64,000 bases of DNA. Origin: Eledone cirrhosa. Taxonomy: Eukaryota. How positions within the stretch are numbered: position 1 is the first letter of the stretch; each line of letters opens with the position of its first letter. Shown here in pieces: positions 1 through 64,000 of the stretch. The DNA is taken from assembly GCA_964016885.1 (NCBI GenBank), contig OZ024745.1, positions 3,596,001 to 3,660,000 on the forward strand, given 5' to 3'. The notes under the pieces are model-generated. The model did no database searches and had not been told where the DNA came from. It worked only from the letters and a program-made list of their open reading frames with translations. Position numbers and translations under genes: made by a program.

Positions 1-1
1 T

Positions 2-22678: not shown

Positions 22679-22756
22679 TAATAGTGTGTGTATTTGAGCT
22701 CCATGAGTTGAAAATAACCTGGGTTGTTGTTGACAGACATTACAAGCCTGGAAGAT
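22679..22756 (-). CDS. MAU2: MAU2 (Scc4) internal exon, 78 nt, phase 0/0
   Basis: TTTTTATCTTCCAG|...|GTGAGT. Encodes IFQACNVCQQQPRLFSTHGAQIHTLL, matching vertebrate MAU2 ISQVCQLCQQSPRLFSNHAAQLHTLL as recalled. Confidence 0.92.
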
Positions 22757-22779
22757 CTGGAAGATAAAAATATACAGCA

Positions 22780-22940
22780 TTAAAATAAGGTATCAGTAAT
22801 GCACTGGGGTCAATTTAGTCAACTTTCCTCTCCTCTTCAAATTGCTGGCCTTGTGCAAAAAGTTGAAACTATTATTATTATTGGGAGAGGATTGGCAATA
22901 TCGGAAGAGTGTCGGACAACATGCTTTGTGTATTATAGTT
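22780..22940 (+). mobile_element. Degenerate SINE fragments
   Basis: CACTGGGGTCAATTTAGTCAAC...AAATTGCTGGCCTTGTGCAAAAAGTTGAAAC followed by an (ATT)n tail. Resembles cephalopod SINE 3' ends, from memory. Confidence 0.45.
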
Positions 22941-23099
22941 ACTGTTTTCCTCATATAGTAGACCATACTGACAGCTATTTCCTTCTCATTTAGTTGCAGG
23001 TATTAACAGCATTGGCTGGTCAGCAGGTCAATGGTTGCCACAACCAGCATAGCTATATTTTCTACTCTTAGTCTTTTCTAGCACAGTATCTCTTTACTT

Positions 23100-23580: not shown

Positions 23581-23624
23581 AACATTAATATGAAATAAGA
23601 AGAAAGTAAAATTGATTGACTTAC

Positions 23625-23728
23625 TTCTTGGATGGCTGCAGACTTACTTCCCATTATTAGACGACACATGACAATATGTTCAAGCAGCATCAATTGGAAT
23701 GATGATAAGAGGGGGTGGGCATCCAGCA
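23625..23728 (-). CDS. MAU2: MAU2 internal exon, 104 nt, phase 1/0
   Basis: TATAG|TG...GAA|GTAAGT. Encodes (M)LDAHPLLSSFQLMLLEHIVMCRLIMGSKSAAIQE, versus human [35 protein letters not shown] as recalled. Confidence 0.95.
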
Positions 23729-23793
23729 CTATATAGACAAGAAAAACTTTGGTTTAATTTCATCAATACACATATATATATGTTATTTTACAT

Positions 23794-25013: not shown

Positions 25014-25039
25014 AATACAATAAAGTAAACATTACTTAC

Positions 25040-25130
25040 TTTTTAATTTTTCAATCTGCATAAGAGCTTTGTCAGTATATTTTTGTGCTTTGTCCATGTA
25101 GCCGGCCTGCATGGAATGCATCACTGTAAC
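25040..25130 (-). CDS. MAU2: MAU2 internal exon, 91 nt, phase 0/1
   Basis: CTCCTTCTTCAG|GTT...AAAA|GTAAGT. Encodes [30 protein letters not shown], versus human [30 protein letters not shown] as recalled. Absent from the ORF track. Confidence 0.96.
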
Positions 25131-25496: not shown

Positions 25497-25556
25497 AAGA
25501 CTAAATATTTGAGTTCAATTGTGTATGTATCAAATATAATTTCTAATCATACTTAC

Positions 25557-25630
25557 AAGGTAAACTAAGACACACATATGTTCTTTTGGTAACCACTGGA
25601 ACTGGTCTATCTGGTTGCTAGAAAGAGGTT
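25557..25630 (-). CDS. MAU2: MAU2 internal exon, 74 nt, phase 1/0
   Basis: TTTTCTGATTTTCAG|AA...CTT|GTAAGT. Encodes (E)PLSSNQIDQFQWLPKEHMCVLVYL, versus human EILPSNPADLFHWLPKEHMCVLVYL as recalled. Confidence 0.95.
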
Positions 25631-25867
25631 CTGAAAATCAGAAAACAAGTCGTCAAAAAAAAACTTCCGATACTTTGAAATTCTTGTACAACATGAAAAT
25701 ATTTTTTTATATTTTAAAATATATTTTGTTAATACTTTATTTTCCATCCGATATGGTTTGATAAATAATTCATTTCAATTCTATGACACTGAACACAAAG
25801 AATTCCAATGGTTTTGATGAATAGAGCACAGTTTAGGTGAAGAAAATATTAAAGTTTTGTGATGTAG

Positions 25868-28800
25868 TGACTTAAGGTAGTTCAATGTATTGATGGAAAG
25901 AAGTAGTTGAGATCTAACTTAAGCTAGTTCAATGTAGTGATGGGAAGAAGTAGGTTAGATATGACTTAAGCTAGTTCAATGTAGTGATGGGAAGAAGTAG
26001 TTTAGATATGACTTAAGGTAGTTCAATGTAGTGATGGGAAGAAGTAGTTTAGATCTGACTTAAGGTAGTTCAATGTAGTGATGGGAAGTAGTAGTTTAGA
26101 TCTAGCTTAAGGTAGTTCAATGTAGTGATGGGAAGAAGTAGTTTAGATCTAATTTAAGGTAGTTCAATGAAACTGATGGGAAGAAGTAGTTTAGATCTGA
26201 CAACGTAGTTCAATGTAGTGATGGGAAGAAGTAGTTTAGATCTAACTTAAGGTAGTTCAATGTAGTGATGGGAAGAAGTAGTTTAGATCTAACTTAAGAT
26301 AGTTCAATGTAGTGATGGGAAGAAGGAGTTTATATCTAACTTAAGGTAGTTCAATGTAGTGATGGGAAGAAGTAGTTAGATCTGACTTAAGGTAGTTCAA
26401 TGTAGTGATGGGAAGAAGTAGTTTAGATCTGACTTAAGGTAGTTCAATGTATTGATGGAAAGAAGTAGTTGAGATCTAACTTAAGCTAGTTCAATGTAGT
26501 GATGGGAAGAAGTAGGTTAGATATGACTTAAGCTAGTTCAATGTAGTGATGGGAAGAAGTAGTTTAGATATGACTTAAGGTAGTTCAATGTAGTGATGGG
26601 AAGAAGTAGTTAGATCTGACTTAAGGTAGTTCAATGTAGTGATGGGAAGAAGTAGTTAGATCTGACTTAAGGTAGTTCAATGTAGTGATGGGAAGAAGTA
26701 GTTAGATCTGAATTAAGGTAGTTCAATTTAGTGATGGGAAAAAGGAGTTTATATCTTACTTAAGGTAGTTCAATGTAGTGATGGGAAGTAGTTTAGATCT
26801 AACTTAAGGTAGTTCAATGTAGTGATGGGAAGAAGTAGTTTCGATCTAACTTAAGATGTAGTGATGGGAAGAAGTGGTTACATCTGACTTAAGATAGTTC
26901 AATGTAGTGATGGGAAGAAGTAGGTAAGATCTAACTTAAGATTGTTCAATGTAGTGATGGGAAGAAGTAGTTAGATCTGACTTAAGGTAGTTCAATGTAG
27001 TGATGCGAGGAAGTAGTTTAGATCTGACTTAAGATAGTTCAATGTAGTGATGGGAAGAAGTAGTTTAGATCTAACTTAAGGTAGTTCAATGTAGTGATGG
27101 GAAGTAGTTTAGATCTGACTTAAGGTAGTTCAATGTAGTGATGGGAAGAAGCAGTTTAGATCCGACTTAAGATAGTTCAATGTAATGATGGAAAGAAGTA
27201 GTTAGATCTAACTTAAGGTAGTTCAATGTAGTGATGGGAAGAAGCAGTTTAGATCTGACTTAAGGTAGTTCAATGTAGTGATGGGAAGAAGTAGATGGAT
27301 CTGACTTAAGATAGTTCAATGTAATGACGGAAAGAAGTAGTTAGATCTAACTTAAGGTAGTTCAATAAACTGATGGGAAGAAGCAGTTTAGATCTGACAA
27401 CGTAGTTCAATGTAGTGATGGGAACAAGTAGTTTAGATCTGACTTAAGGTAGTTCAATGTAGTGATGGGAAGAAGTAGATAGATCTGACTTAAGATAGTT
27501 CAATGTAATGACGGAAAGAAGTAGTTAGATCTAACTTAAGGTAGTTCAATAAACTGATGGGAAGAAGCAGTTTAGATCTGACAACGTAGTTCAATGGAGT
27601 GATGGGAAGAAGTAGTTAGATCTGACTTAAGGTAGTTCAATGTAGTGGTGGGAAGTAGTAGTTTAGATCTACCTTAAGGTAGTTTAATGTAGTAATGGGA
27701 AGTAGTAGTTTAGATCTACCTTAAGGTAGTTCAATGTAGTGATGGGAAGTAGTAGTTTAGATCTACCTTAAGGTAGTTCAATGTAGTGATGGGAAGAAGT
27801 AGTTTAGATCTAACTTAAGATTGTTCAATGTAGTGATGGGAAGAAGTAGTTTAGTTCTAACTTAAGGTAGTTCAATAAACTGATGGGAAGAAGTAGTTTA
27901 GATCTGACAACGTAGTTCAATGTAGTGATAGGAAGAAGTAGTTGAGATCTGACTTAAGGTAGTTCAATGTAGTAATGGGAAGAAGGAGTTTATATCTAAC
28001 TTAAGGTAGTTCAATGTAGTGATGGGAAGAAGTATTTAGATCTGACTTAAGGTAGTTCAATGTAGTGATGGGAAGAAGTAGTTTAGATCTGACTTAAGGT
28101 AGTTCAATGTAGTGATGGGAAGAAGTAGTTTAGATCTAACTTAAGGTAGTTCAATGTAGTGATGGGAAGAAGTAGTTTTGATCTGACTTAAGATAGTTCA
28201 ATGTAGTCATGGGAAGAAGTAGTTTAGATCTGAGTTAAGATAGTTCAATGTAGTGATGGGAAGAAGTAGTTTAGATCTGACGTAAGGTAGTTCAATGTAG
28301 TGATGGGAAGAAGTAGATAGATCTGACTTACGATAGTTCAATGTAGTGATCGGAAAAAGTAGTTTAGATCTAACTTAAGGTAGTTCAATGTAGTGATGGG
28401 AAGAAGTAGTTCAGATCTGACTTAAGATAGTTCAATGTAATGATGGAAAGAAGTAGTTAGATCTAACTTAAGGTAGTTCAATGTAGTGATGGGAAGTAGT
28501 TTAGATCCGACTTAAGGTAGTTCAATGTAGTGATGGGAAGAAGTAGTTTAGATCTAACTTAAGGTAGTTCAATAAACTGATGGGAAGAAGCGGTTTAGAT
28601 CTGACAACGTAGTTCAATGGAGTGATGGGAAGAAGTAGTTAGATCTGACTTAAGGTAGTTCAATGTAGTGGTGGGAAGTAGTAGTTTAGATCTACCTTAA
28701 GGTAGTTTAATGTAGTGATGGGAAGAAGTAGTTTAGATCTAACTTAAGATGTAGTGATGGGAAGAAGTAGTTAGATCTGACTTAAGATTGTTCAATGTAG

Positions 28801-31800
28801 TGATGGGAAGAAGTAGTTTAGATCTAACTTAAGGTAGTTCAATGTAGTGATGGGAAGTAGTAGTTTAGATCTACCTTAAGGTAGTTCAATGTAGTGATGG
28901 GAAGAAGTAGTTTAGATCTAACTTAAGGTAGTTCAATGTAGTGATGGGAAGAAGTAGTTTAGATCTAACTTAAGATGTAGTGATGGGAAGAAGTAGTTAG
29001 ATCTGACTTAAGATTGTTCAATGTAGTGATGGGAAGAAGTAGTTTAGATCTAACTTAAGGTAGTTCAATGTAGTGATGGGAAGAAGTAGTTTAGATCTGA
29101 CTTAAGGTAGTTCAATGTAGTGATGGGAAGAAGTAGTTAGATCTGACTTAAGGTAGTTCAATGTAGTGATGGGAAGAAGTAGTTTAGATCTGACAACGTA
29201 GTTCAATGTAGTGATAGGAAAAAGTAGTTAGATCTGACTTAATGTAGTGATGGGAACAAGTAGTTTAGATCTAACTTAAGGTAGTTCAATGTAGTGATGA
29301 GAAGAAGTAGTTTAGATCTGACTTAAGGTAGTTCAATGTAATGATGGGAAGAAGTAGTTTAGATCTGACTTAAGATAGTTCAATGTAGTCATGGGAAGAA
29401 GTAGTTTAGATCTAACTTAAGGTCGTTCAATAAACTGATGGGAAGAAGTAATTTAGATCTGACAACGTAGTTCAATGTAATGATGGGAAGAAGTAGTTTA
29501 AATCTAACTTAAGGTAGTTCAATGTAGTGATGGGAAGAAGTAGTTAGATCTGACTTAAGGTAGTTCAATGTAGTGATGGGAGGAAGTAGTTTAGATCTGA
29601 CTTAAGATAGTTCAATGTAGTGATGGGAAGAAGTAGTTTAGATCTAACTTAAGGTAGTTCAATAAACTGATGGGAAGAAGTAGTTTAGATCTGACAACGT
29701 AGTTCAATGTAGTGATAGGAAGAAGTAGTTGAGATCTGACTTAAGGTAGTTCAATGTAGTAATGGGAAGAAGCAGTTTATATCTAACTTAAGGTAGTTCA
29801 ATGTAGTGATGGGAAGAAGTAGTTAGATCTGACTTAAGGTAGTTCAATGTAGTGATGGGAAGAAGTAGTTTAGATCTGACTTAAGGTAGTTCAATGTAGT
29901 GATGGGAAGAAGTAGTTTAGATCTGAATTAAGGTAGTTCAATTTAGTGATGGGAAAAAGGAGTTTATATCTAACTTAAGGTAGTTCAATGTAGTGATGGG
30001 AAGAAGTAGTTTAGATCTGACTTAAGGTAGTTCAATGTAGTGATGGGAAGAAGTAGTTTAGATCTGAATTAAGGTAGTTCAATGTAGTGATGGGAAGAAG
30101 TAGTTTAGATCTGACTTAAGGTAGTTCAATGTAGTGATGGGAAGAAGTAGTTAGATCTGACTTAAGGTAGTTCAATGTAGTGATGGGAAGAAGTAGTTTA
30201 GATCTGACTTAAGGTAGTTCAATGTAGTGATGGGAAAAAGGAGTTTAGATCTGAATTAAGGTAGTTCAATGTAGTGATGGGAAGAAGTAGTTAGATCTGA
30301 CTTAAGGTAGTTCAATGTAGTGATGGGAAGAAGTAGTTTAGATCTGAATTAAGGTAGTTCAATGTAGTGATGGGAAAAAGGAGTTTATATCTTACTTAAG
30401 GTAGTTCAATGTAGTGATGGGAAGAAGTAGTTTAGATCTGACTTAAGGTAGTTCAATGTAGTGATGGGAAGAAGTAGTTTAGATCTGAATTAAGGTAGTT
30501 CAATTTAGTGATGGGAAAAAGGAGTTTATATCTTACTTAAGGTAGTTCAATGTAGTGATGGGAAGAAGTAGTTTCGATCTAACTTAAGATGTAGTGATGG
30601 GAAGGAGTAGTTACATCTGACTTAAGATAGTTCAATGTAGTGATGGGAAGAAGTAGTTAAGATCTAACTTAAGATTGTTCAATGTAGTGATGGGAAGAAG
30701 TAGTTAGATCTGACTTAAGGTAGTTCAATGTAGTGATGGGAAGAAGTAGTTTAGATCTAACTTAAGGTAGTTCAATGTAGTGATGGGAAGTAGTTTAGAT
30801 CTGACTTAAGGTAGTTCAATGTAGTGATGGGAAGAAGCAGTTTAGATCCGACTTAAGATAGTTCAATGTAATGATGGAAAGAAGTAGTTAGATCTAACTT
30901 AAGGTAGTTCAATGTAGTGATGGGAAGAAGCAGTTTAGATCTGACTTAAGGTAGTTCAATGTAGTGATGGGAAGAAGTAGTTTAGATCTGACGTAAGGTA
31001 GTTCAATGTAATGATGGGAAGAAGTAGTTTAGATCTGATTTAGTTCAATGTAGTCATGGGAAGAAGTAGTTTAGATCTAACTTAAGGTAGTTCAATGTAG
31101 TGATGGGAAGAAGCAGTTTAGATCTGACTTAAGGTAGTTCAATGTAGTGATGGGAAGAAGCAGTTTAGATCTGACTTAAGGTAGTTCAATGTAGTGATGG
31201 GAAGAAGTAGTTTAGATCTGACAACGTAGTTCAATGTAGTGATGGGAAGAAGCAGTTTAGATCTAACTTAAGGTAGTTCAATGTAGTGGTGGGAAGTAGT
31301 AGTTTAGATCTAACTTAAGGTAGTTCAATGTAGTAATGAGAAGAAGTAGTTTAGATCTGACTTAAGGTAGTTCAATGTAATGATGGGAAGAAGTAGATAG
31401 ATCTGACTTACGATAGTTCAATGTAGTGATCGGAAAAAGTAGTTTAGATCTAACTGAAGGTAGTTCAATGTAGTGATGGAAAGAAGGAGTTTAGATCTGA
31501 CAACGTTGTTCAATGTAGTGATCGGAAAAAGTAGTTTAGATCTAACTTAAGGTAGTTCAATGTCGTGATGGGAAGTAGTTTAGATCTGACAACGTTGTTC
31601 AATGTAGTGATGGGAAGAAGTAGTTTAGATCTGACAACGTAGTTCAATGTAGTGATAGGAAAAAGTAGTTAGATCTGACTTAATGTAGTGATGGGAACAA
31701 GTAGTTTAGATCTAACTTAAGGTAGTTCAATGTAGTGATGAGAAGAAGTAGTTTAGATCTGACTTAAGGTAGTTCAATGTAATGATGGGAAGAAGTAGTT

Positions 31801-34800
31801 TAGATCTGACTTAAGATAGTTCAATGTAGTCATGGGAAGAAGTAGTTTAGATCTAACTTAAGGTCGTTCAATAAACTGATGGGAAGAAGTAATTTAGATC
31901 TGACAACGTAGTTCAATGTAATGATAGGAAGAAGTAGTTTAAATCTAACTTAAGGTAGTTCAATGTAGTGATGGGAAGAAGTAGTTAGATCTGACTTAAG
32001 GTAGTTCAATGTAGTGATGGGAGGAAGTAGTTTAGATCTGACTTAAGATAGTTCAATGTAGTGATGGGAAGAAGTAGTTTAGATCTAACTTAAGGTAGTT
32101 GAATGTAGTGATGGGAAGTAGTTTAGATCTGACTTAAGATAGTTCAATGTAGTGATGGGAAGAAGTAGTTTAGATCTAACTTAAGAAAGTTCAATGTAGT
32201 GATGGGAAGAAGTAGTTTAGATCTAACTTAAGGTAGTTCAATGTAGTGATGGGAAGAAGTAGTTTAGATCTAACTTAAGGTAGTTCAATAAACTGATGGG
32301 AAGAAGTAGTTTAGATCTGACTTAAGGTAGTTCAATGTAGTGATGGGAAGAAGTAGTTTAGATCTGACTTAAGGTAGTTCAATGTAGTGATGGGAAGAAG
32401 TAGTTTAGATCTGACTTAAGGTAGTTCAATGTAATGATGGGAAGAAGTAGTTTAGATCTCACTTAAGGTAGTTCAATGTAGTGATGGGAAGAAGTAGTTT
32501 AGATCTGACTTAAGGTAGTTCAATGTAGTGATGGGAAGAAGTAGGTTAGATCTAACTTAAGGTAGTTCAATGTAGTGATGGGAAGAAGTAGTTTAGATCT
32601 GACTTAAGGTAGTTCAATGTAATGATGGGAAGAAGTAGTTTAGATCTGACTTAAGGTAGTTCAATGTAGTGATGGGAAGTAGTAGTTTAAATCTGACTTA
32701 AGGTAGTTCAATGTAGTGATGGGAAGAAGTAGTTTAGATCTGACTTAAGGTAGTTCAATGTAGTGATGGGAAGAAGTAGTTTAGATCTGACTTAAGGTAG
32801 TTCAATGTAGTGATGGGAAGAAGTAGTTTAGATCTGACTTAAGGTAGTTCAATGTAGTGATGGAAAGTAGTAGTTAGATCTAACTTAAGGTAGTTCAATG
32901 TAGTGATGGGAAGAAGTAGTTTATATCTAACTTAAGGTAGTTCAATGTAGTGATGGGAAGAAGTAGTTTAGATCTGACTTAATGTAGTTCAATGTAGTGA
33001 TGGGAAGAAGTAGTTTAGATCTGAATTAAGGTAGTTCAATGTAGTGATGGGAAGAAGTAGTTTAGATCTGACGTAAGGTAGTTCAATGTAGTGATGGGAA
33101 GAAGTAGGTTAGATCTAACTTAAGGTAGTTCAATGTAGTGATGGGAAGAAGTAGTTTAGATCTGACGTAAGGTAGTTCAATTTAGTGATGGGAAAAAGGA
33201 GTTTATATCTTACTTAAGGTAGTTCAATGTAGTGATGGGAAGAAGTAGTTTAGATCTGAATTAAGGTAGTTCAATGTAGTGATGGGAAGAAGTAGTTTAG
33301 ATCTGAATTAAGGTAGTTCAATGTAGTGATGGGAAGAAGTAGTTTAGATCTGACGTAAGGTAGTTCAATTTAGTGATGGGAAAAAGGAGTTTATATCTTA
33401 CTTAAGGTAGTTCAATGTAGTGATGGGAAGAAGTAGTTTAGATCTGACTTAAGGTAGTTCAATGTAGTGATGGGAAGAAGTAGTTTCGATCTGACTTAAG
33501 GTAGTTCAATTTAGTGATGGGAAGAAGTAATTTAGATCTGAATTAAGGTAGTTCAATTTAGTGATGGGAAAAAGGAGTTTATATCTTACTTAAGGTAGTT
33601 CAATGTAGTGATGGGAAGCAGCAGTTTAGATCTGACTTAAGATGTAGTGATGGGAGGAAGTAGTTTAGATCTGACTTAAGATAGTTCAATGTAGTGATGG
33701 GAAGAAGTAGTTTAGATCTAACTTAAGGTAGTTCAATGTAGTGATGGGAAGAAGCAGTTTAGATCTGACTTAAGGTAGTTCAATGTAGTGATGGGAAGTA
33801 GTTTAGATCTGACTTAAGGTAGTTCAATGTAGTGATGGGAAGTAGTTTAGATCTGACTTAAGGTAGTTCAATGTAGTGATGGGAAGAAGTAGTTTAGAAC
33901 TAACTTAAGATAGTTCAATGTAGTGATGGGAAGAAGTAGTTTAGATCTGACAACGTAGTTCAATGTAATGATGGGAAGAAGTAGTTTAAATCTAACTTAA
34001 GATAATTAAATGTAGTGATGGGAAGAAGTAGTTAGATCTGACTTAAGGTAGTTCAATGTAGTGATGCGAGGAAGTAGTTTAGATCTGACTTATGGTAGTT
34101 CAATGTAGTGATGGGAAGAAGTAGTTTAGATCTAACTTAAGGTAGTTCAATGTAGTGATGGGAAGTAGTAGTTTAGATCTAACTTAAGATAGTTCAATGT
34201 AGTGATGGGAAGAAGCAGTTTAGATCTGACTTAAGGTAGTTCAATGTAGTGATGGGAAGAAGTAGTTTAGATCTGACGTAAGGTAGTTCGATGTAGTGAT
34301 GGGAAGAAGTAGTTTAGATCTGACGTAAGGTAGTTCAATGTAGTGATGGGAAGAAGCAGTTTAGATCTGACTTAAGGTAGTTCAATGTAGTGATGGGAAG
34401 AAGTAGTTTAGATCTGACGTAAGGTAGTTCGATGTAGTGATGGGAAGAAGTAGTTTAGATCTGACGTAAGTTAGTTCGATGTAGTGATGAGAAGAAGTAG
34501 TTTAGATCTGACTTAAGGTAGTTCAATGTAGTGATGGGAAGAAGTAGTTTAGATCTGACTTAAGGTAGTTCAATGTAGTGATGGGAAGAACCAGTTTAGA
34601 TCTGACTTAAGGTAGTTCAATGTAGTGATGAGAAGAAGTAGTTTAGATCTGACTTAAGGTAGTTCAATGTAATGATGGGAAGAAGTAGTTTAGATCTGAT
34701 TTAGTTCAATGTAGTCATGGGAAGAAGTAGTTTAGATCTAACTTAAGGTAGTTCAATAAACTGATGGGAAGAAGTAGTTTAGATCTGACAACGTAGTTCA

Positions 34801-51682: not shown

Positions 51683-51724
51683 TTTTGCCTTTCACAAATG
51701 TAAAATAACATGCAGAGATATACC

Positions 51725-51912
51725 ATAGACATGGTTTCACGTTCAACTCCACTGCATGACAGTTGAGGCAAATGTCTTCAGCTATATAAAGCTATATAAA
51801 GCTGGTTAAATATCATAAGTGAAACTGGTAGATAAATTGATCAAAGGCCCACTGTATACGAATGTGTGTGTGTGTGTGTGTGTTGCATTGACAAGGTACC
51901 TTTCAAACAAAT
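51725..51912 (+). mobile_element. Degenerate tRNA-SINE remnant with (TG)n, between the two satellites
   Basis: ATGGTTTCACGTTCAACTCCACTGCATGACAGTTGAGGCAAATGTCTTCAGCTATA contains a B-box-like GTTCAACTCC and a decayed CCTTGGGCAAGTGTCTT-type core, followed by (TG)n at 51863-51883. Confidence 0.6.
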
Positions 51913-54900
51913 CAGGAAGGGTGTCTGGTTATAGGATAACACTGCAGGAAGGGTGTCTGGTTAGATAATACTGCAGGAAGAGTGTCTGGTTAGATAACAC
52001 TGCAGGAAGGGTGTCTGGTTAGATAACACTGCGGGAAGAGTGTCTGGTTAGATAATACTGCAGGAAGAGTGTCTGGTTAGATAACACTGCAGGAAGGGTG
52101 TCTGGTTAGATAATACTGCAGGAAGGGTGTCTGGTTATAGGATAATACTGCAGGAAGGGTGTCTAGTTAGATAATACTGCAGGAAGGGTGTCTGGTTATA
52201 GGATAATACTGCAGGAAGGGTGTCTGGTTAGATAATACTGCAGGAAGGGTGTCTGGTTAGATAATACTGCAGGAAGGGTGTCTGGTTAGATAATACGGCA
52301 GGAAGGGTGTCTGGTTAGATAACACTGCAGGAAGGGTGTCTGGTTAGATAATACTGCAGGAAGGGTGTCTGGTTAGATAACACTGCAGGAAGGGTGTCTG
52401 GTTAGATAATACTGCAGGAAGAGTGTATGGTTAGATAACACTGCAGGAAGAGTGTCTGGTTAGATAACACTGCAGGAAGGGTGTCTGGTTAGATAATACT
52501 GCAGGAAGGGTGTCTGGTTAGATAACACTGCAGGAAGAGTGTCTGGTTATAGGATAATACTGCAGGAAGGGTGTCTGGTTAGATAACACTGCAGGAAGAG
52601 TGTCTGGTTAGATAACACTGCAGGAAGGGTGTCTGGTTAGATAATACTACAAGAAGGGTGTCTGGTTAGATAACACTGCAGGAAGAGTGTCTGGTTAGAT
52701 AATACTGCAGGAAGAGTGTCTGGTTAGATAATACTGCAGGAAGGGTGTCTGGTTAGATAACACTGCAGGAAGGGTGTCTGGTTATAGGATAATACTGCAG
52801 GAAGGGTGTCTGGTTAGATAATACTGCAGGAAGAGTGTCTGGTTAGATAATACTGCAGGAAGGGTGTCTGGTTAGATAACACTGCAGGAAGGGTGTCTGG
52901 TTAGATAACACTGCAGGAAGAGTGTCTGGTTAGATAATACTGCAGGAAGGGTGTCTGGTTAGATAACACTGCAGGAAGAGTGTCTGGTTAGATAACACTG
53001 CAGGAAGGGTGTCTGGTTATAGGATAACACTGCAGGAAGAGTGTCTGGTGAGATAATACTGCAGGAAGGGTGTCTGGTTATAGGATACTGCAGGAAGGGT
53101 GTCTGGTTAGATAATACTGCAGGAAGGGTGTCTGGTTAGATAATACTGCAGGAAGGGTGTCTGGTTAGATAATACTGCAGGAAGGGTGTCTGGTTAGATA
53201 ACACTGCAGGAAGAGTGTCTGGTTAGATAACACTGCAGGAAGGGTGTCTGGTTAGATAATACTGCAGGAAGGGTGTCTGGTTAGATAACACTGCAGGAAG
53301 AGTGTCTGGTTATAGGATAATACTGCAGGAAGGGTGTCTGGTTAGATAACACTGCAGGAAGAGTGTCTGGTTAGATAACACTGCAGGAAGAGTGTCTGGT
53401 TAGATAACACTGCAGGAAGGGTGTCTGGTTAGATAACACTGCAGGAAGAGTGTCTGGTTAGATAACACTGCAGGAAGAGTGTCTGGTTAGATAATACTGC
53501 AGGAAGGGTGTCTGGTTAGATAATACTGTAGGAAGGGTGTCTGGTTAGATAACACTGCAGGAAGGGTGTCTGGTTAGATAACACTGCAGGAAGAGTGTCT
53601 GGTTAGATAACACTGCAGGAAGAGTGTCTGGTTAGATAATACTGCAGGAAGGGTGTCTGGTTAGATAATACTGCAGGAAGGGTGTCTGGTTAGATAATAC
53701 TGCAGGAAGGGTGTCTGGTTAGATAACACTGCAGGAAGGGTGTCTGGTTATAGGATAACACTGCAGTAAGGGTGTCTGGTTATAGGATAATACTGCAGGA
53801 AGAGTGTCTGGTTAGATAACACTGCAGGAAGAGTGTCTGGTTAGATAACACTGCAAGAAGGGTGTCTGGTTAGATAACACTGCAGGAAGGGTGTCTGGTT
53901 AGATAACACTGCAGGAAGGGTGTCTGGTTAGATAATACTGCAGGAAGGGTGTCTGGTTAGATAACACTGCAGGAAGGGTGTCTGGTTAGATAACACTGCA
54001 GGAAGGGTGTCTGGTTAGATAATACTGCAGGAAGAGTGTCTGGTTAGATAATACTGCAGGAAGGGTGTCTGGTTAGATAACACTGCAGGAAGGGTGTCTG
54101 GTTATAGGATAATACTGCAGGAAGGGTGTCTGGTTAGATAACACTGCAGGAAGGGTGTCTGGTTATAGGATAATACTGCAGGAAGGGTGTCTGGTTAGAT
54201 AACACTGCAGGAAGGGTGTCTGGTTATAGGATAATACTGCAGGAAGGGTGTCTGGTTAGATAATACTGCAGGAAGGGTGTCTGGTTAGATAACACTGCAA
54301 GAAGGGTGTCTGGTTAGATAATACTGCAGGAAGGGTGTCTGGTTAGATAACACTGCAGGAAGGGTGTCTGGTTAGATAATACTGCAGGAAGGGTGTCTGG
54401 TTATAGGATAATACTGCAGGAAGGGTGTCTGGTTAGATAATACTGCAGGAAGGGTGTCTGGTTATAGGATAATACTGCAGGAAGGGTGTCTGGTTAGATA
54501 ATACTGCAGGAAGGGTGTCTGGTTAGATAATACTGCAGGAAGGGTGTCTGGTTAGATAACACTGCAGGAAGGGTGTCTGGTTAGATAACACTGCAGGAAG
54601 GGTGTCTGGTTAGATAATACTGCAGGAAGAGTGTCTGGTTAGATAACACTGCAGGAAGGGTGTCTGGTTATAGGATAATACTGCAGGAAGAGTGTCTGGT
54701 TAGGTAATACTGCAGGAAGAGTGTCTGGTTAGATAATACTGCAGGAAGGGTGTCTGGTTATAGGATAATACTGCAGGAAGGGTGTCTGGTTAGATAATAC
54801 TGCAGGAAGGGTGTCTGGTTATAGGATAATACTGCAGGAAGGGTGTCTGGTTATAGGATAATACTGCAGGAAGGGTGACTGGTTAGATAACACTGCAGGA

Positions 54901-57900
54901 AGGGTGTCTGGTTAGATAATACGGCAGGAAGGGTGTCTGGTTAGATAACACTGCAGGAAGGGTGTCTGGTTATAGGATAATACTGCAGGAAGGGTGTCTG
55001 GTTAGATAATACTGCAGGAAGGGTGTCTGGTTATAGGATAATACTGCAGGAAGGGTGTCTGGTTATAGGATAATACTGCAGGAAGGGTGTCTGGTTAGAT
55101 AATACTGCAGGAAGGGTGTCTGGTTATAGGATAATACTGCAGGAAGGGTGTCTGGTTATAGGATAATACTGCAGGAAGAGTGTCTGGTTATAGGATAATA
55201 CTGCAGGAAGAGTGTCTGGTTATAGGATAACACTGCAGGAAGAGTGTCTGGTTATAGGATAACACTGCAGGAAGGGTGTCTGGTTATAGGATAATACTGC
55301 AGGAAGAGTGTCTGGTTAGGTAATACTGCAGGAAGAGTGTCTGGTTAGATAATACTGCAGGAAGGGTGTCTGGTTAGGTAATACTGCAGGAAGAGTGTCT
55401 GGTTAGATAATACTGCAGGAAGGGTGTCTGGTTATAGGATAATACTGCAGGAAGGGTGTCTGGTTAGATAATACTGCAAGAAGGGTGTCTGGTTAGATAA
55501 CACTGCAGGAAGGGTGTCTGGTGAGATAATACTGCAGGAAGGGTGTCTGGTTAGATAATACTGCAGGAAGGGTGTCTGGTTAGATAACACTGCAGGAAGG
55601 GTGTCTGGTTAGATAATACTGCAGGAAGGGTGTCTGGTTAGATAATACTGCAGGAAGGGTGTCTCGTCGGATAATACTGCAGGAAGGGTGTCTGGTTAGA
55701 TAATACTGCAGGAAGGGTGTCTGGTTAGATAACACTGCAGGAAGGGTGTCTGGTTAGATAATACTGCAGGAAGGGTGTCTGGTTAGATAACACTGCAGGA
55801 AGGGTGTCTGGTTAGATAATACTGCAGGAAGGGTGTCTGGTTATAGGATAATACTGCAGGAAGAGTGTCTGGTTAGATAATACTGCAGGAAGGGTGTCTG
55901 GTTAGATAATACTGCAGGAAGGGTGTCTGGTTAGATAATACTGCAGGAAGGGTGGCTGGTTATAGGATAATACTGCAGGAAGAGTGTCTGGTCAGATAAC
56001 ACTGCAGGAAGGGTGTCTGGTTAGATAATACTGCAGGAAGCGTGTCTGGTTAGATAATACTGCAGGAAGGGTGTCTCGTCAGATAATACTGCAGGAAGGG
56101 TGTCTGGTTAGATAATACTGCAGGAAGGGTGTCTGGTTAGATAATACTGCAGGAAGGGTGTCTGGTTAGATAACACTGCAGGAAGGGTGTCTGATTAGAT
56201 AATACTGCAGGAAGGGTGTCTGGTTAGATAACACTGCAGGAAGGGTGTCTGGTTAGATAACACTGCAGGAAGGGTGTCTGGTTAGATAACACTGCAGGAA
56301 GGGTGTCTGGTTAGATAACACTGCAGGAAGGGTGTCTGGTTAGATAACACTGCAGGAAGGGTGTCTGGTTAGATAACACTGCAGGAAGGGTGTCTGGTTA
56401 GATAACACTGCAGGAAGGGTGTCTGGTTAGATAACACTGCAGGAAGGGTGTCTGGTTAGATAACACTGCAGGAAGGGTGTCTGGTTATAGGATAATACTG
56501 CAGGAAGGGTGTCTGGTTAGATAATACTGCAGGAAGGGTGTCTGGTTAGATAATACTGCAGGAAGGGTGTCTGGTTATAGGATAATACTGCAGGAAGAGT
56601 GTCTGGTTAGATAATACTGCAGGAAGGGTGTCTGGTTAGATAATACTGCAGGAAGGGTGTCTGGTTATAGGATAATACTGCAGGAAGAGTGTCTGGTTAG
56701 ATAATACTGCAGGAAGGGTGTCTGGTTAGATAACACTGCAGGAAGGGTGTCTGGTTAGATAACACTGCAGGAAGGGTGTCTGGTTAGATAACACTGCAGG
56801 AAGGGTGTCTGGTTAGATAATACTGCAGGAAGGGTGTCTGGTTAGATAACACTGCAGGAAGAGTGTCTGGTTAGATAATACTGCAGGAAGGGTGTCTGGT
56901 TAGATAATACTGCAGGAAGGGTGTCTGGTTAGATAACACTGCAGGAAGGGTGTCTGGTTAGATAATACTGCAGGAAGGGTGTCTGGTTAGATAACACTGC
57001 AGGAAGAGTGTCTGGTTAGATAATACTGCAGGAAGGGTGTCTGGTTAGATAATACTGCAGGAAGGGTGTCTGGTTAGATAACACTGCAGGAAGGGTGTCT
57101 GGTTAGATAATACTGCAGGAAGGGTGTCTGGTTAGATAATACTGCAGGAAGGGTGTCTGGTTAGATAACACTGCAGGAAGGGTGTCTGGTTAGATAACAT
57201 TGCAGGAAGAGTGTCTGGTTAGATAATACTGCAGGAAGGGTGTCTGGTTAGATAACACTGCAGGAAGGGTGTCTGGTTAGATAACACTGCAGGAAGAGTG
57301 TCTGTTTATAGGATAATACTGCAGGAAGGGTGTCTGGTTAGATAACACTGCAGGAAGAGTGTCTGGTTAGATAATACTGCAGGAAGGGTGTCTGGTTAGA
57401 TAACACTGCAGGAAGGGTGTCTGGTTAGATAACACTGCAGGAAGGGTGTCTGGTTAGATAACACTGCAGGAAGGGTGTCTGGTTAGATAACACTGCAGGA
57501 AGAGTGTCTGTTTATAGGATAATACTGCAGGAAGGGTGTCTGGTTAGATAACACTGCAGGAAGAGTGTCTGGTTAGATAATACTGCAGGAAGGGTGTCTG
57601 GTTAGATAACACTGCAGGAAAGGTGTCTGGTTAGATAACACTGCAGGAAGAGTGTCTGTTTATAGGATAATACTGCAGGAAGGGTGTCTGGTTAGATAAT
57701 ACTGCAGGAAGGGTGTCTGGTTAGATAATACTGCAGGAAGGGTGTCTGGTTAGATAACACTGCAGGAAGGGTCTGGTTAAATAATACTGCAGGAAGGGTG
57801 TCTGGTTAGATAATACTGCAGGAAGGGTGTCTGGTTAGATAACACTGCAGGAAGGGTGTCTGGTTAGATAACACTGCAGGAAGGGTGTCTGGTTAGATAA

Positions 57901-60900
57901 TACTGCAGGAAGGGTGTCTGGTTAGATAATACTGCAGGAAGAGTGTCTGGTTAGATAACACTGCAGGAAGGGTCTGGTTAGATAATACTGCAGGAAGGGT
58001 GTCTGGTTAGATAATACTGCAGGAAGGGTGTCTGGTTAGATAATACTGCAGGAAGGGTGTCTGGTTAGATAACACTGCAGGAAGGGTGTCTGGTTATAGG
58101 ATAATACTGCAGGAAGGGTGTCTGGTTAGATAACACTGCAGGAAGGGTGTCTGGTTAGATAACACTGCAGGAAGGGTGTCTGGTTATAGGATAATACTGC
58201 AGGAAGGGTGTCTGGTTAGATAACACTGCAGGAAGGGTGTCTGGTTAGATAATACTGCAGGAAGGGTGTCTGGTTAGATAACACTGCAGGAAGGGTGTCT
58301 GGTTAGATAATACTGCAGGAAGGGTGTCTGGTTAGATAATACTGCAGGAAGAGTGTCTGGTTAGATAATACTGCAGGAAGGGTGTCTGGTTAGATAATAC
58401 TGCAGGAAGGGTGTCTGGTTAGATAACACTGCAGGAAGGGTGTCTGGTTAGATAATACTGCAGGAAGGGTGTCTGGTTAGATAACACTGCAGGAAGGGTC
58501 CGGTTAAATAATACTGCAGGAAGGGTGTCTGGTTAGATAATACTGCAGGAAGGGTGTCTGGTTAGATAACACTGCAGGAAGGGTGTCTGGTTATAGGATA
58601 CTGCAGGAAGGGTGTCTGGTTAGATAATACTGCAGGAAGGGTGTCTGGTTAGATAATACTGCAGGAAGGGTGTCTGGTTAGATAATACTGCAGGAAGAGT
58701 GTCTGGTTATAGGATAATACTGCAGGAAGAGTGTCTGGTGAGATAATACTGCAGGAAGGGTGTCTGGTTATATAATACTGCAGGAAGGGTGTCTGGTTAG
58801 ATAACACTGCAGGAAGGGTGTCTGGTTAGATAATACTGCAGGAAGGGTGTCTGGTTAGATAATACTGCAGGAAGGGTGTCTGGTTAGATAATACTGCAGG
58901 AAGGGTGTCTGGTTAGATAACACTGCAGGAAGGGTGTCTGGTTATAGGATACTGCAGGAAGGGTGTCTGGTTAGATAATACTGCAGGAAGGGTGTCTGGT
59001 TAGATAATACTGCAGGAAGGGTGTCTGGTTAGATAATACTGCAGGAAGGGTGTCTGGTTATAGGATAATACTGCAGGAAGAGTGTCTGGTGAGATAATAC
59101 TGCAGGAAGGGTGTCTGGTTAGATAATACTGCAGGAAGGGTGTCTGGTTAGATAACACTGCAGGAAGGGTGTCTGGTTAGATAATACTGCAGGAAGGGTG
59201 TCTGGTTAGATAATACTGCAGGAAGGGTGTCTGGTTAGATAATACTGCAGGAAGGGTGTCTGGTTAGATAATGCTGCAGGAAGGGTGTCTGGTTAGATAA
59301 CACTGCAGGAAGGGTGTCTGGTTAGATAATACTGCAGGAAGGGTGACTGGTTAGATAATACTGCAGGAAGGGTGTCTGGTTAGATAACACTGCAGGAAGG
59401 GTGTCTGGTTAGATAATGCTGCAGGAAGGGTGACTGGTTAGATAATACTGCAGGAAGGGTGTCTGGTTAGATAACACTGCAGGAAGGGTGTCTGGTTAGA
59501 TAACACTGCAGGAAGGGTGTCTGGTTATAGGATAATACTGCAGGAAGGGTGTCTGGTTAGATAACACTGCAGGAAGGGTGTCTGGTTAGATAACACTGCA
59601 GGAAGGGTGTCTGGTTATAGGATAATACTGCAGGAAGGGTGTCTGGTTAGATAACACTGCAGGAAGGGTGTCTGGTTAGATAATACTGCAGGAAGGGTGT
59701 CTGGTTAGATAATACTGCAGGAAGGGTGTCTGGTTATAGGGTAATACTGCAGGAAGGGTGTCTGGTTAGATAATACTGCAAGAAGGGTGTCTGGTTAGAT
59801 AACACTGCAGGAAGAGTGTCTGGTTAGATAATACTGCAGGAAGGGTGTCTGGTTAGATAATACTGCAGGAAGGGTGTCTGGTTATAGGGTAATACTGCAG
59901 GAAGGGTGTCTGGTTAGATAATACTGCAAGAAGGGTGTCTGGTTAGATAACACTGCAGGAAGAGTGTCTGGTTAGATAATACTGCAGGAAGGGTGTCTGG
60001 TTAGATAATACTGCAGGAAGAGTGTCTGGTTAGATAATACTGCAGGAAGAGTGTCTGGTTAGATAACACTGCAGGAAGGGTCTGGTTAGATAATACTGCA
60101 GGAAGGGTGTCTGGTTAGATAACACTGCAGGAAGAGTGTCTGTTTATAGGATAATACTGCAGGAAGGGTGTCTGGTTAGATAACACTGCAGGAAGAGTGT
60201 CTGGTTAGATAATACTGCAGGAAGGGTGTCTGGTTAGATAACACTGCAGGAAGGGTGTCTGGTTAGATAACACTGCAGGAAGGGTGTCTGGTTAGATAAC
60301 ACTGCAGGAAGGGTGTCTGGTTAGATAACACTGCAGGAAGAGTGTCTGTTTATAGGATAATACTGCAGGAAGGGTGTCTGGTTAGATAACACTGCAGGAA
60401 GAGTGTCTGGTTAGATAATACTGCAGGAAGGGTGTCTGGTTAGATAACACTGCAGGAAAGGTGTCTGGTTAGATAACACTGCAGGAAGAGTGTCTGTTTA
60501 TAGGATAATACTGCAGGAAGGGTGTCTGGTTAGATAATACTGCAGGAAGGGTGTCTGGTTAGATAATACTGCAGGAAGGGTGTCTGGTTAGATAACACTG
60601 CAGGAAGGGTCTGGTTAAATAATACTGCAGGAAGGGTGTCTGGTTAGATAATACTGCAGGAAGGGTGTCTGGTTAGATAACACTGCAGGAAGGGTCTGGT
60701 TAGATAATACTGCAGGAAGGGTGTCTGGTTAGATAATACTGCAGGAAGGGTGTCTGGTTAGATAATACTGCAGGAAGAGTGTCTGGTTAGATAACACTGC
60801 AGGAAGGGTCTGGTTAGATAATACTGCAGGAAGGGTGTCTGGTTAGATAATACTGCAGGAAGGGTGTCTGGTTAGATAATACTGCAGGAAGGGTGTCTGG

Positions 60901-63900
60901 TTAGATAACACTGCAGGAAGGGTGTCTGGTTATAGGATAATACTGCAGGAAGGGTGTCTGGTTAGATAACACTGCAGGAAGGGTGTCTGGTTAGATAACA
61001 CTGCAGGAAGGGTGTCTGGTTATAGGATAATACTGCAGGAAGGGTGTCTGGTTAGATAACACTGCAGGAAGGGTGTCTGGTTAGATAATACTGCAGGAAG
61101 GGTGTCTGGTTAGATAACACTGCAGGAAGGGTGTCTGGTTAGATAATACTGCAGGAAGGGTGTCTGGTTAGATAATACTGCAGGAAGAGTGTCTGGTTAG
61201 ATAATACTGCAGGAAGGGTGTCTGGTTAGATAATACTGCAGGAAGGGTGTCTGGTTAGATAACACTGCAGGAAGGGTGTCTGGTTAGATAATACTGCAGG
61301 AAGGGTGTCTGGTTAGATAACACTGCAGGAAGGGTCCGGTTAAATAATACTGCAGGAAGGGTGTCTGGTTAGATAATACTGCAGGAAGGGTGTCTGGTTA
61401 GATAACACTGCAGGAAGGGTGTCTGGTTATAGGATACTGCAGGAAGGGTGTCTGGTTAGATAATACTGCAGGAAGGGTGTCTGGTTAGATAATACTGCAG
61501 GAAGGGTGTCTGGTTAGATAATACTGCAGGAAGAGTGTCTGGTTATAGGATAATACTGCAGGAAGAGTGTCTGGTGAGATAATACTGCAGGAAGGGTGTC
61601 TGGTTAGATAATACTGCAGGAAGGGTGTCTGGTTAGATAACACTGCAGGAAGGGTGTCTGGTTAGATAATACTGCAGGAAGGGTGTCTGGTTAGATAATA
61701 CTGCAGGAAGGGTGTCTGGTTAGATAATACTGCAGGAAGGGTGTCTGGTTAGATAACACTGCAGGAAGGGTGTCTGGTTATAGGATACTGCAGGAAGGGT
61801 GTCTGGTTAGATAATACTGCAGGAAGGGTGTCTGGTTAGATAATACTGCAGGAAGGGTGTCTGGTTAGATAATACTGCAGGAAGGGTGTCTGGTTATAGG
61901 ATAATACTGCAGGAAGAGTGTCTGGTGAGATAATACTGCAGGAAGGGTGTCTGGTTAGATAATACTGCAGGAAGGGTGTCTGGTTAGATAACACTGCAGG
62001 AAGGGTGTCTGGTTAGATAATACTGCAGGAAGGGTGTCTGGTTAGATAATACTGCAGGAAGGGTGTCTGGTTAGATAATACTGCAGGAAGGGTGTCTGGT
62101 TAGATAATGCTGCAGGAAGGGTGTCTGGTTAGATAACACTGCAGGAAGGGTGTCTGGTTAGATAATACTGCAGGAAGGGTGACTGGTTAGATAATACTGC
62201 AGGAAGGGTGTCTGGTTAGATAACACTGCAGGAAGGGTGTCTGGTTAGATAATGCTGCAGGAAGGGTGACTGGTTAGATAATACTGCAGGAAGGGTGTCT
62301 GGTTAGATAACACTGCAGGAAGGGTGTCTGGTTAGATAACACTGCAGGAAGGGTGTCTGGTTATAGGATAATACTGCAGGAAGGGTGTCTGGTTAGATAA
62401 CACTGCAGGAAGGGTGTCTGGTTAGATAACACTGCAGGAAGGGTGTCTGGTTATAGGATAATACTGCAGGAAGGGTGTCTGGTTAGATAACACTGCAGGA
62501 AGGGTGTCTGGTTAGATAATACTGCAGGAAGGGTGTCTGGTTAGATAATACTGCAGGAAGGGTGTCTGGTTATAGGGTAATACTGCAGGAAGGGTGTCTG
62601 GTTAGATAATACTGCAAGAAGGGTGTCTGGTTAGATAACACTGCAGGAAGAGTGTCTGGTTAGATAATACTGCAGGAAGGGTGTCTGGTTAGATAATACT
62701 GCAGGAAGGGTGTCTGGTTATAGGGTAATACTGCAGGAAGGGTGTCTGGTTAGATAATACTGCAAGAAGGGTGTCTGGTTAGATAACACTGCAGGAAGAG
62801 TGTCTGGTTAGATAATACTGCAGGAAGGGTGTCTGGTTAGATAATACTGCAGGAAGAGTGTCTGGTTAGATAATACTGCAGGAAGAGTGTCTGGTTAGAT
62901 AATACTGCAAGAAGGGTGTCTGGTTAGATAATACTGCAGGAAGGGTGTCTGGTTATAGGATAATACTGCAGGAAGGGTGTCTGGTTATAGGATAATACTG
63001 AAGGAAGGGTGTCTGGTTAGATAATACTGCAGGAAGGGTGTCTGGTTAGATAATACTGCAGGAAGGGTGTCTGGTTATAGGATAATACTGCAGGAAGGGT
63101 GTCTGGTTAGATAACACTGCAGGAAGGGTGTCTGGTTAGATAATACTGCAGGAAGGGTGTCTGGTTAGATAATACTGCAGGAAGGGTGTCTGGTTATAGG
63201 ATAATACTGCAGGAAGGGTGTCTGGTTAGATAATACTGCAGGAAGGGTGTCTGGTTAGATAATACTGCAGGAAGGGTGTCTGGTTATAGGATAATACTGC
63301 AGGAAGGGTGTCTGGTTAGATAACACTGCAGGAAGGGTGTCTGGTTAGATAATACTGCAGGAAGGGTGTCTGGTTAGATAATACTGCAGGAAGGGTGTCT
63401 GGTTAGATAATACTGCAGGAAGGGTGTCTGGTTAGATAATACTGCAGGAAGGGTGTCTGGTTAGATAATACTGCAGGAAGGGTGTCTGGTTAGATAATAC
63501 TGCAGGAAGGGTGTCTGGTTAGATAATACTGCAGGAAGGGTGTCTGGTTAGATAACACTGCAGGAAGGGTCTGGTTAGATAACACGGCAGGAAGGGTGTC
63601 TGGTTAGATAATACTGCAGGAAGGGTGTCTGGTTATAGGATAATACTGCAGGAAGGGTGTCTGGTTAGATAATACTGCAGGAAGGGTGTATGGTTAGATA
63701 ATACTGCAGGAAGGGTGTCTGGTTAGATAATACTGCAGGAAGGGTGTCTGGTTATAGGATAATACTGCAGGAAGGGTGTCTGGTTAGATAACACTGCAGG
63801 AAGGGTGTCTGGTTAGATAATACTGCAGGAAGGGTGTCTGGTTAGATAATACTGCAGGAAGGGTGTCTGGTTAGATAATACTGCAGGAAGGGTGTCTGGT

Positions 63901-64000
63901 TAGATAATACTGCAGGAAGGGTGTCTGGTTAGATAACACTGCAGGAAGGGTGTCTGGTTAGATAATACTGCAGGAAGGGTGTCTGGTTAGATAACACTGC
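51913..64000. repeat. Satellite array 2: 29-bp monomer CTGCAGGAAGRGTGTCTGGTTAGATAAYA, with a 32-bp variant (...GGTTATAGGATAA...); >400 copies, continues past the window
   Basis: Directly visible, very homogeneous, PstI site in nearly every monomer. Confidence 0.98.

What the first reader, a model, noticed from the sequence alone, without database searches (positions are those of the whole stretch)
22679..64000. Cohesin-loader gene MAU2 with a >38-kb intron filled by two satellite arrays
Seen: four clean, phase-compatible, stop-free MAU2 exons. No upstream exon is visible between 25631 and 64000, and no downstream exon (expected GLYC..NAEAQF) between 22678 and 1. Inference: the upstream intron holds at least 38 kb of near-pure satellite starting ~240 bp from a splice acceptor, and the downstream intron is a retroelement nest of at least 22 kb. 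Pol II would then transcribe through both arrays. Established: MAU2 partners NIPBL/Scc2, and Drosophila Nipped-B is a heterochromatin-resident gene. This may be a parallel case of an essential gene in satellite-rich chromatin.
Basis: partly seen in the sequence, partly recalled or inferred. Interest (0 to 1): 0.75.

Follow-up and report, generated by a model that had tools for sequence, protein, structure and literature searches.

The report
Octopod MAU2 gene swollen by repeats
In an octopus-group animal the chromosome-cohesion gene MAU2 has, as assembled, a 58,000-base intron that is 98% two tandem repeats whose commonest units occur nowhere else in the genome; the cell likely transcribes through and splices them out, and the swelling is likely a side effect of a repeat-rich neighbourhood rather than something special to this gene.

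Summary
The four exons are exons 8-11 of a single-copy, 19-exon octopod MAU2 (608 aa, 2 differences from O. vulgaris). Exon 7 lies 58.0 kb upstream with no assembly gap between; that intron is 98% a 47-bp array (25.8 kb) and a 29-bp array (31.0 kb). Both are private: 96 of 96 and 347 of 347 genome-wide exact matches lie here. The 29-bp unit likely grew out of a SINE-like copy in place. Intron 2 (187 kb) holds two more arrays. Spliced contigs join exons 9-11 and leave exon 8 upstream at the acceptor. Exons 12-19 lie inverted 2.25 Mb away beyond assembly gaps, most likely a scaffolding error. The cohesin-loader/heterochromatin parallel is unsupported: neighbouring DNA is 43-86% tandem repeat, LHPP has the same build, and NIPBL (sampled part) does not. 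This scan noted the same architecture before in other genes of this genome. Closest known: chicken 'sequence stuttering' and Drosophila intron gigantism. One more example of a genome-wide trait; no long read across the arrays was seen.

The parts
25557..25630 (-). MAU2 exon 8 (74 nt, residues 256-280)
   Evidence: tblastn with P0002; AG/GT and phase; covered by spliced contig record 6 of run X5
25040..25130 (-). MAU2 exon 9 (91 nt)
   Evidence: joint 23728-25040 CT..AC in X5
23625..23728 (-). MAU2 exon 10 (104 nt)
   Evidence: joints on both sides in X5
22679..22756 (-). MAU2 exon 11 (78 nt); last exon collinear in this assembly
   Evidence: X5 record 1 continues 949 letters beyond its donor off the stretch
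25631..64000 (-). 3' two-thirds of MAU2 intron 7 (whole intron 57,970 bp, donor at C5:3679600, gap-free)
25868..51682 (.). 47-bp tandem array, 25.8 kb, about 559 copies, units 92-95% like the commonest one, multi-kb higher-order duplications; private to this locus
   Evidence: start of the array bridged to exon 8 by a 0-difference contig in runs X1 and X2
51683..51912 (.). 230-bp non-array island between the two arrays; no strong splice site on the transcribed strand
51913..64000 (.). 29-bp tandem array (continues to C5:3678951; 31.0 kb, about 1061 copies); private; likely expanded from the body of a SINE-like copy whose head flanks it
1..22678 (-). start of MAU2 intron 11: nest of non-LTR retroelement fragments in both orientations, SINE-like repeats and TA-rich microsatellites; runs on 65 kb beyond the window to an assembly gap

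Best explanation
This is an intact, spliced, single-copy octopod MAU2 gene whose intron 7 (58 kb) and intron 2 (187 kb) are filled by private tandem arrays that likely grew in place, and which RNA polymerase II would transcribe and the spliceosome would remove. Steps: (1) a 29-56-bp piece of ordinary intron sequence is duplicated head to tail; for the 29-bp unit the seed is likely the body of a SINE-like copy (alignment shown, origin inferred). (2) The array grows by copying multi-kilobase blocks, likely unequal exchange or repair slippage (exact duplicated blocks up to 5.4 kb shown; mechanism inferred). (3) Growth is tolerated as long as exons and a few hundred splice-proximal bases stay intact (237 and 649 bp margins shown) and the transcribed strand gains no strong splice sites (shown with a small gene-derived model; selection inferred and not statistically established). 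(4) The exons are likely recognised by exon definition and joined across the arrays (spliced contigs shown for exons 9-11; the exon 7-8 join inferred). The process is regional and genome-wide, not specific to cohesin loaders. The inverted position of exons 12-19 is most likely a scaffolding error.
For: 19 exons, all with AG/GT, give one open frame of 608 aa differing by 2 residues from O. vulgaris MAU2 and 3 from O. bimaculoides; each of the 17 exons that the genome search listed appears once. Exons 3-11 lie on one gap-free 296-kb contig. Privacy: 96 of 96 exact 37-mer matches and 347 of 347 exact 29-mer matches in 3.0 Gb are in these arrays. SINE-like origin: the array begins right behind a dispersed-repeat head; with the head fixed and the unit shuffled, 0, 0, 12, 49 and 64 of 1000 shuffles reach the observed score against 5 chosen copies; unit alone, 8 of 300. 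Block growth: 62% and 21% of positions lie in exact 300-mer duplicates; longest exact repeats 5442 and 928 bp. Transcribed strand: 0 acceptors at or above the lower quartile of the gene's own sites in all 4 arrays, and 4, 0, 2, 0 such donors against 8, 1, 15, 1618 on the other strand. RNA: run X5 record 1 joins exons 9-10-11; record 6 covers exon 8 and has 73 letters upstream that are not the intron, with the boundary base fitting exon 7. DNA runs X1 and X2 bridge exon 8 into the 47-bp array with 0 differences. Regional trait: arrays of 300 bp or more cover 43%, 51%, 59% and 86% of four neighbouring stretches; minisatellite cover averages 0.42 in 9 samples from the first 8 Mb of C5, 0.13 in 11 others on C5 and 0.13 in 18 on other scaffolds (hand-picked 10-kb samples). 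An LHPP-like gene on C2 has a 34-kb intron with a 31.8-kb 37-bp array. A 99.2% identical duplicate block nearby carries a 48-bp array of 3197 versus 2159 bp, so array lengths change fast.
Against: No long read or contig spanning either array was seen, so lengths rest on the assembly; exact multi-kb duplicates could partly be assembly over-expansion. The scaffold is unreliable nearby: the 3' half of the gene is inverted 2.25 Mb away and a 14-kb block is present twice at 99.2%. The loose letters at exon 8 and exon 11 were not printed, so the partners of those splices are inferred from lengths and one boundary base. X5's kind is not on record; X1 and X2 are one sample and may be the assembled one. 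Splice-silence rests on four repeat units and an 18-site model, and the strand difference comes mostly from one array. No source was found for the 47-, 56- and 36-bp units (99, 93 and 49 of 100 shuffles reach their scores against the SINE-like set). The far end of C5 showed almost no arrays (4 samples at 120-133.5 Mb), so 'near a chromosome end' is not a general rule.
Confidence: 0.78

Rival explanations
1. Assembly artefact: the arrays exist but are much shorter, or were joined between exon 7 and exon 8 wrongly.
For: Scaffolding errors are likely close by (inverted 3' half, duplicated block); long exact duplicates in the arrays; no spanning read seen.
Against: No gap in the intron; exon order and strand are right across it; the exon 8-array junction is in short-read contigs; the units occur nowhere else to be misplaced from; 179 and 71 distinct unit variants give the arrays internal landmarks.
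Confidence: 0.1
2. One reading: MAU2 is a heterochromatin-resident essential gene, parallel to Drosophila Nipped-B, and the arrays mark or build satellite heterochromatin that the gene depends on.
For: 80% of the 252-kb span of exons 1-11 is four arrays; Nipped-B is listed in 2R h46 (PMC4981424 passage); region is repeat-dense.
Against: Arrays are private, not a shared satellite; same build in an unrelated gene; sampled NIPBL genes lack long arrays; chicken stuttering introns lie in euchromatin (PMC12954441 Discussion). No chromatin data either way.
Confidence: 0.08
3. The split is real: MAU2 mRNA is made by trans-splicing of a minus-strand 5' transcript to a plus-strand 3' transcript 2.25 Mb away, or the sequenced animal carries an inversion through intron 11.
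For: Exons 1-11 are on the minus strand and 12-19 on the plus strand of the same scaffold; X5 record 1 runs 949 letters beyond exon 11, enough for the 714 coding bases of exons 12-19 plus a UTR.
Against: A 200-N gap lies 18 kb before exon 12 and another 88 kb after exon 11, so flipping the segment between them restores a normal gene; both gap-facing ends carry the same retroelement and TA-repeat nest; the sequence left of the first gap duplicates C5:9.76 Mb. I read only part of the 2.18 Mb between the gaps, so the exact true order is open.
Confidence: 0.03

Closest known systems
Intronic 'sequence stuttering' on chicken dot chromosomes (Hron et al. 2026, PMC12954441; abstract, Results section 7 part 1 of 2 and Discussion read)
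   Same: [quoted passage not shown]
   Different: Invertebrate; arrays of 26-88 kb at 35-50% GC, orderly with multi-kb higher-order blocks; on a 135-Mb scaffold, not a GC-rich dot chromosome; no exon fragment seen in the units; one unit traced to a SINE-like copy; length variation among individuals not tested at MAU2.
Intron gigantism of Drosophila Y-loop genes kl-3 and kl-5 (PMC6508621, passages; PMC11207136, abstract only)
   Same: Small conserved exons separated by tandem-repeat introns that have to be transcribed and spliced out.
   Different: Those introns are megabases of simple satellites (AATAT, AAGAC) in testis-specific Y genes needing Blanks and Heph; here tens of kb of private 29-56-bp units in a cohesin loader (broad expression recalled, not tested).
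Transposon-derived minisatellites and satellites (review PMC9659126, passages)
   Same: A tandem unit taken from inside a SINE-type element.
   Different: Here one such array reaches 31 kb inside an intron of a conserved gene; the repeat's class as a SINE is recalled, not annotated by a tool.
Drosophila heterochromatic genes including Nipped-B (PMC4981424, passages)
   Same: Conserved gene with enlarged, repeat-rich introns.
   Different: In the passages read, repeat gain is mainly transposon-derived and intron growth about 7-10-fold on means of a few hundred bases; heterochromatin status here is untested.
MAU2/Scc4 cohesin loader subunit (Pfam PF10345)
   Same: Full-length orthologue; P0002 scores 398.8 bits over the whole model and the gene differs from it at 3 of 608 residues.
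   Different: Nothing unusual in the protein; only the gene's introns.

Membership tests
MAU2/Scc4 (PF10345) | Full-length Cohesin_load/TPR protein orthologous to MAU2 | tested here: met
MAU2/Scc4 (PF10345) | Intact reading frame and spliced transcript | tested here: met
   one open frame over 19 exons; spliced contigs for exons 8-11
MAU2/Scc4 (PF10345) | Binds NIPBL and loads cohesin | not tested
   recalled function; two NIPBL genes are present
Sequence stuttering (Hron 2026) | Locally expanded motifs of tens of bases confined to introns, exons intact | tested here: met
Sequence stuttering (Hron 2026) | Extensive length variation among individuals | tested here: inconclusive
   not measurable at MAU2; a neighbouring duplicated block differs in one array's length, 3197 versus 2159 bp
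Sequence stuttering (Hron 2026) | Occasional copying of exon edges into the intron | tested here: inconclusive
   arrays start 237 and 649 bp from the exons and tblastn found no exon pieces in them; the feature is optional in the paper
Sequence stuttering (Hron 2026) | GC-rich, gene-dense dot-chromosome setting | tested here: not met
   arrays 35% and 45% GC on a 134.7-Mb scaffold
Drosophila Y-loop intron gigantism | Megabase introns of simple satellite, over 99% of the locus | tested here: not met
   58 and 187 kb; 29-56-bp units; 80% of the exon 1-11 span; intron 11 is unbounded above
Drosophila Y-loop intron gigantism | Intronic repeats transcribed as part of the pre-mRNA | tested here: inconclusive
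   inferred from gene structure and spliced contigs; no nascent RNA data
Drosophila Y-loop intron gigantism | Dedicated RNA-binding proteins and testis-specific programme | not testable with these tools
   no functional data
Heterochromatin-resident genes | H3K9me2/3 and HP1 over the locus, dependence on that chromatin | not testable with these tools
   no chromatin data

The most novel reading that the evidence does not exclude
Octopods run a genome-wide, fast 'intron stuttering' process in which SINE fragments and unique intron pieces seed private arrays of tens of kilobases inside even dosage-sensitive housekeeping genes; array length is polymorphic and tunes MAU2 output or timing, and octopod cells have a general machinery for elongating through and splicing across such arrays, with selection keeping only arrays that are splice-silent on the transcribed strand.
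Probability: 0.2. Interest if true: 0.72.

Novelty: new variant of a known kind. Interest (0 to 1): 0.4.

Why it matters
Tandem-repeat intron gigantism is best known from Drosophila Y genes and, recently, chicken dot chromosomes. Here it sits in a conserved cohesin-loader gene of a mollusc, with arrays that can be traced to their local seed. Because each array is private, array-specific probes would report transcription, chromatin and length variation of one gene, which makes the question of how polymerase and spliceosome handle such introns directly testable. The locus is not unique in this genome, which lowers its value as a single finding and raises that of the genome-wide pattern. It also flags a probable scaffolding error that would split MAU2 in annotation.

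Tried and rejected
No RNA holder was listed as such by the run search; X5 was recognised as spliced only after laying it. Run X4 (organism B) gave no cover on the 7 bins of the 47-bp array while covering flanks: not used as evidence of absence. Summed contig depth cannot give array copy number. DNA search with the 47-bp array was not scored. Decoy acceptors: each 29-bp unit has a CTAAC, a pyrimidine run and CAG on the transcribed strand (1005 motif matches), but they score 1.6-4.1 bits against a lower quartile of 8.4 for the gene's T-rich acceptors, so I rejected 'a thousand strong decoy splice sites'. Absence of AATAAA from the transcribed strand of all four arrays is expected by chance for four short units; rejected as evidence. 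Recursive splice site in the 230-bp island: no strong acceptor or donor. Kinship among the four MAU2 array units: 5 of 6 pairs not above shuffles; 29 versus 36 reached by 6 of 200, not convincing over six tests. Idea that the block after the first gap was inserted into one split 44-bp array: the second 44-bp array at C5:9.77 Mb has its own copy of the upstream flanks and no gap, so it is a duplicate, not a continuation. Search for further gaps: none in C5:3166001-3530758 or 1347739-1500000; most of the 1.67 Mb between was not read. Two of four comparison copies were cut at wrong offsets; redone. Literature: 4 searches on octopus repeats and introns listed no paper describing such intronic arrays in octopods, judged from listings and the first third of PMC13282606; subscription papers and supplements were not seen and may contain this.

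Full report
Setting. The window is G000:C5:3596001-3660000 of a 3.0-Gb genome; C5 is 134.7 Mb. MAU2 exon 1 is 100% identical to Octopus bimaculoides MAU2 over 77 residues, so the animal is an octopod.

Observation. The four exons are at window 25630-25557, 25130-25040, 23728-23625 and 22756-22679 on the minus strand. Tandem Repeats Finder gives a 47-bp array at 25868-51682 and a 29-bp array from 51913 to the window end. The window holds no N. Window 1-22678 holds non-LTR retroelement frames (7 of 11 frames scanned hit endonuclease, reverse transcriptase or PHD models) and TA-rich repeats.

Whole gene. Mapping P0002 on 464 kb around the window and on 200 kb at 1.2-1.4 Mb gave 19 exons, all AG/GT, in one frame of 608 residues that differs from O. 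vulgaris at 2, O. bimaculoides at 3, O. sinensis at 4 and Argonauta at 14 positions. The genome search listed 17 exon matches, each once (it used a stricter first look and missed the 18-nt and 45-nt exons). The window's exons are 8-11. Intron 7 is 57,970 bp: 649 bp, a 29-bp array of 31,039 bp, a 230-bp island, a 47-bp array of 25,815 bp, 237 bp. Intron 2 is 186,942 bp with a 36-bp array (58 kb, containing one gap) and a 56-bp array (87.5 kb). The other 15 measurable introns are 147-5475 bp. Exons 3-11 lie on one gap-free 296-kb stretch.

The 3' half. Exons 12-19 are on the plus strand at C5:1365897-1378440. A 200-N gap lies 18 kb before exon 12 and another 88 kb after exon 11. Reversing the segment between them gives a normal gene of at least 371 kb with intron 11 at least 106 kb. 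Sequence left of the first gap is 99.2% identical over 14 kb to C5:9755001-9769076, a sign of an unresolved duplicate at this scaffold end. I found no further gap in the parts read and did not read most of the interval, so the true order, and the upper size of intron 11, stay open. Scaffolding error is my reading; trans-splicing or a true inversion gets 0.03.

Reads. The run search listed no RNA holder, but run X5 gave spliced contigs: record 1 (1177 letters) joins exons 9-10-11 across the 1311- and 868-bp introns and goes on for 949 letters off the stretch; exons 12-19 hold 714 coding bases. Record 6 covers exon 8 and has 73 letters upstream that are not intron; exon 7 is 76 nt and its last base explains the one-base overhang. 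The loose letters were not printed, so both partners are inferred. Runs X1 and X2 (one sample, possibly the assembled one) have a contig from 25506 to 25946 with no differences, bridging exon 8 into the 47-bp array. Nothing spans an array.

The arrays. They are private: 96 of 96 exact matches of a 37-mer of the 47-bp unit and 347 of 347 of the 29-bp unit lie in their own array; exact patterns would miss diverged relatives. They hold 179 and 71 unit variants, and 21% and 62% of positions lie in exact 300-mer duplicates at offsets of 2.5-7.9 kb, the longest exact repeat being 5442 bp, which fits growth by block copying (inference). The 29-bp array starts directly behind the head of a dispersed repeat, and its unit aligns with the next part of that repeat. 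With the head fixed and only the unit shuffled, 0, 0, 12, 49 and 64 of 1000 shuffles reach the score against five copies chosen from the hit list; the unit alone is reached by 8 of 300 shuffles. That the repeat is a SINE is recalled. TE-derived minisatellites are well known (PMC9659126, passages). The other three units showed no such link.

Processing. With a model from the gene's own 18 acceptors and 18 donors, none of the four arrays has an acceptor at the lower quartile on the transcribed strand, and donors at that level number 4, 0, 2 and 0, against 8, 1, 15 and 1618 on the other strand. The 29-bp unit looks like a weak acceptor (1005 motif matches) but scores 1.6-4.1 bits against 8.4, and has no donor to pair with. 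The simplest model is read-through and exon definition across the arrays; at 1-4 kb per minute (recalled) intron 7 costs about 15-60 minutes and the gene 1.5-6 hours. Four units are too few to show selection.

Is MAU2 special? No sign of it. Tandem arrays of 300 bp or more cover 43%, 51%, 59% and 86% of four neighbouring stretches. Hand-picked 10-kb samples gave minisatellite cover of 0.42 in 9 from the first 8 Mb of C5, 0.13 in 11 from the rest of C5 and 0.13 in 18 from other scaffolds; 4 of 38 were entirely array. The partner NIPBL occurs as an intronless 2116-aa frame on C1 with no array in 40 kb and as a spliced gene on C15 whose 18 sampled exon matches lie within 20 kb.

Comparison. It works like chicken sequence stuttering (PMC12954441; abstract, part of Results, Discussion), which the authors did not find in other vertebrates apart from gerbil genes, but it fails the GC-rich dot-chromosome feature and individual length variation is untested. 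It resembles Drosophila Y-loop gigantism (PMC6508621 passages; PMC11207136 abstract) in needing transcription through repeats, but not in size, repeat type or tissue. Nipped-B is listed as heterochromatic (PMC4981424 passages); nothing here tests chromatin. Four searches listed no description in octopods; coverage excludes most subscription papers and I read no supplements.

Verdict. Observation confirmed; interpretation partly supported. A real-looking, private, locally grown double array filling a 58-kb intron of an intact MAU2, one instance of a genome-wide octopod trait already noted by this scan on other DNA. New variant of a known kind; interest 0.4.

Noticed in passing
G000:C5:1365897-1378440 (L070, L071) versus window 22679-25630: MAU2 exons 12-19 lie on the opposite strand 2.25 Mb away, with 200-N gaps at C5:1347539-1347738 and 3530759-3530958; probable mis-oriented scaffold segment.
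   Followed up: partly
G000:C5:1319438-1333515 and 9755001-9769076 (L065-L067, L112-L113): A block present twice at 99.2% identity over 14 kb with the same order of 61-, 48- and 44/47-bp arrays; the 48-bp array is 3197 bp in one copy and 2159 bp in the other. Unresolved haplotype or recent duplication.
   Followed up: partly
G000:C1:336786995-336780648 (L142) and C15:21940021-21959798 (L145, L146): Two NIPBL genes: an intronless, intact 2116-aa frame with Cohesin_HEAT and Nipped-B_C domains, and a spliced copy whose exon matches are 52-100% identical to it. The intronless one may be a retained retrocopy.
   Followed up: partly
G000:C5:3695851-3783373 and 3805172-3863289 (L005-L014, L016-L022): Two further arrays (56 bp, 87.5 kb; 36 bp, 58 kb with one gap) in MAU2 intron 2, directly after an 18-nt micro-exon at C5:3870645-3870628; the 36-bp unit carries a strong donor on the non-transcribed strand in most copies.
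   Followed up: partly
G000:C5:1273395-1274313 and 3381064-3401665: The same 61-bp unit forms a 0.9-kb array at one place and a 20.6-kb array at another, sharing about 190 bp of flank; so not every array in this genome is private.
   Followed up: no
G000:C5:3877756-3880000 (L023) and C12:45.0 Mb (L103): An identical 29-bp consensus unit (unrelated to the MAU2 29-mer) forms arrays on two scaffolds, suggesting a mobile or shared seed.
   Followed up: no
G000:C5:3229637-3361557, 3410953-3461274, 3478564-3502832: Further large arrays (26 bp, 132 kb; 27 bp, 50 kb, G-free on one strand; 399 bp, 24 kb) between the window and the next 350 kb.
   Followed up: no
window 604-21001: Several non-LTR retroelement copies with a PHD finger after the reverse transcriptase, in both orientations, interleaved with kilobase TA-rich runs; related copies 93-99% alike flank both assembly gaps.
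   Followed up: partly
G000 contigs C1-C4: Four very large scaffolds (443, 416, 379, 379 Mb) against 135 Mb and less for the rest, about twice the longest contigs listed for the Octopus records.
   Followed up: no
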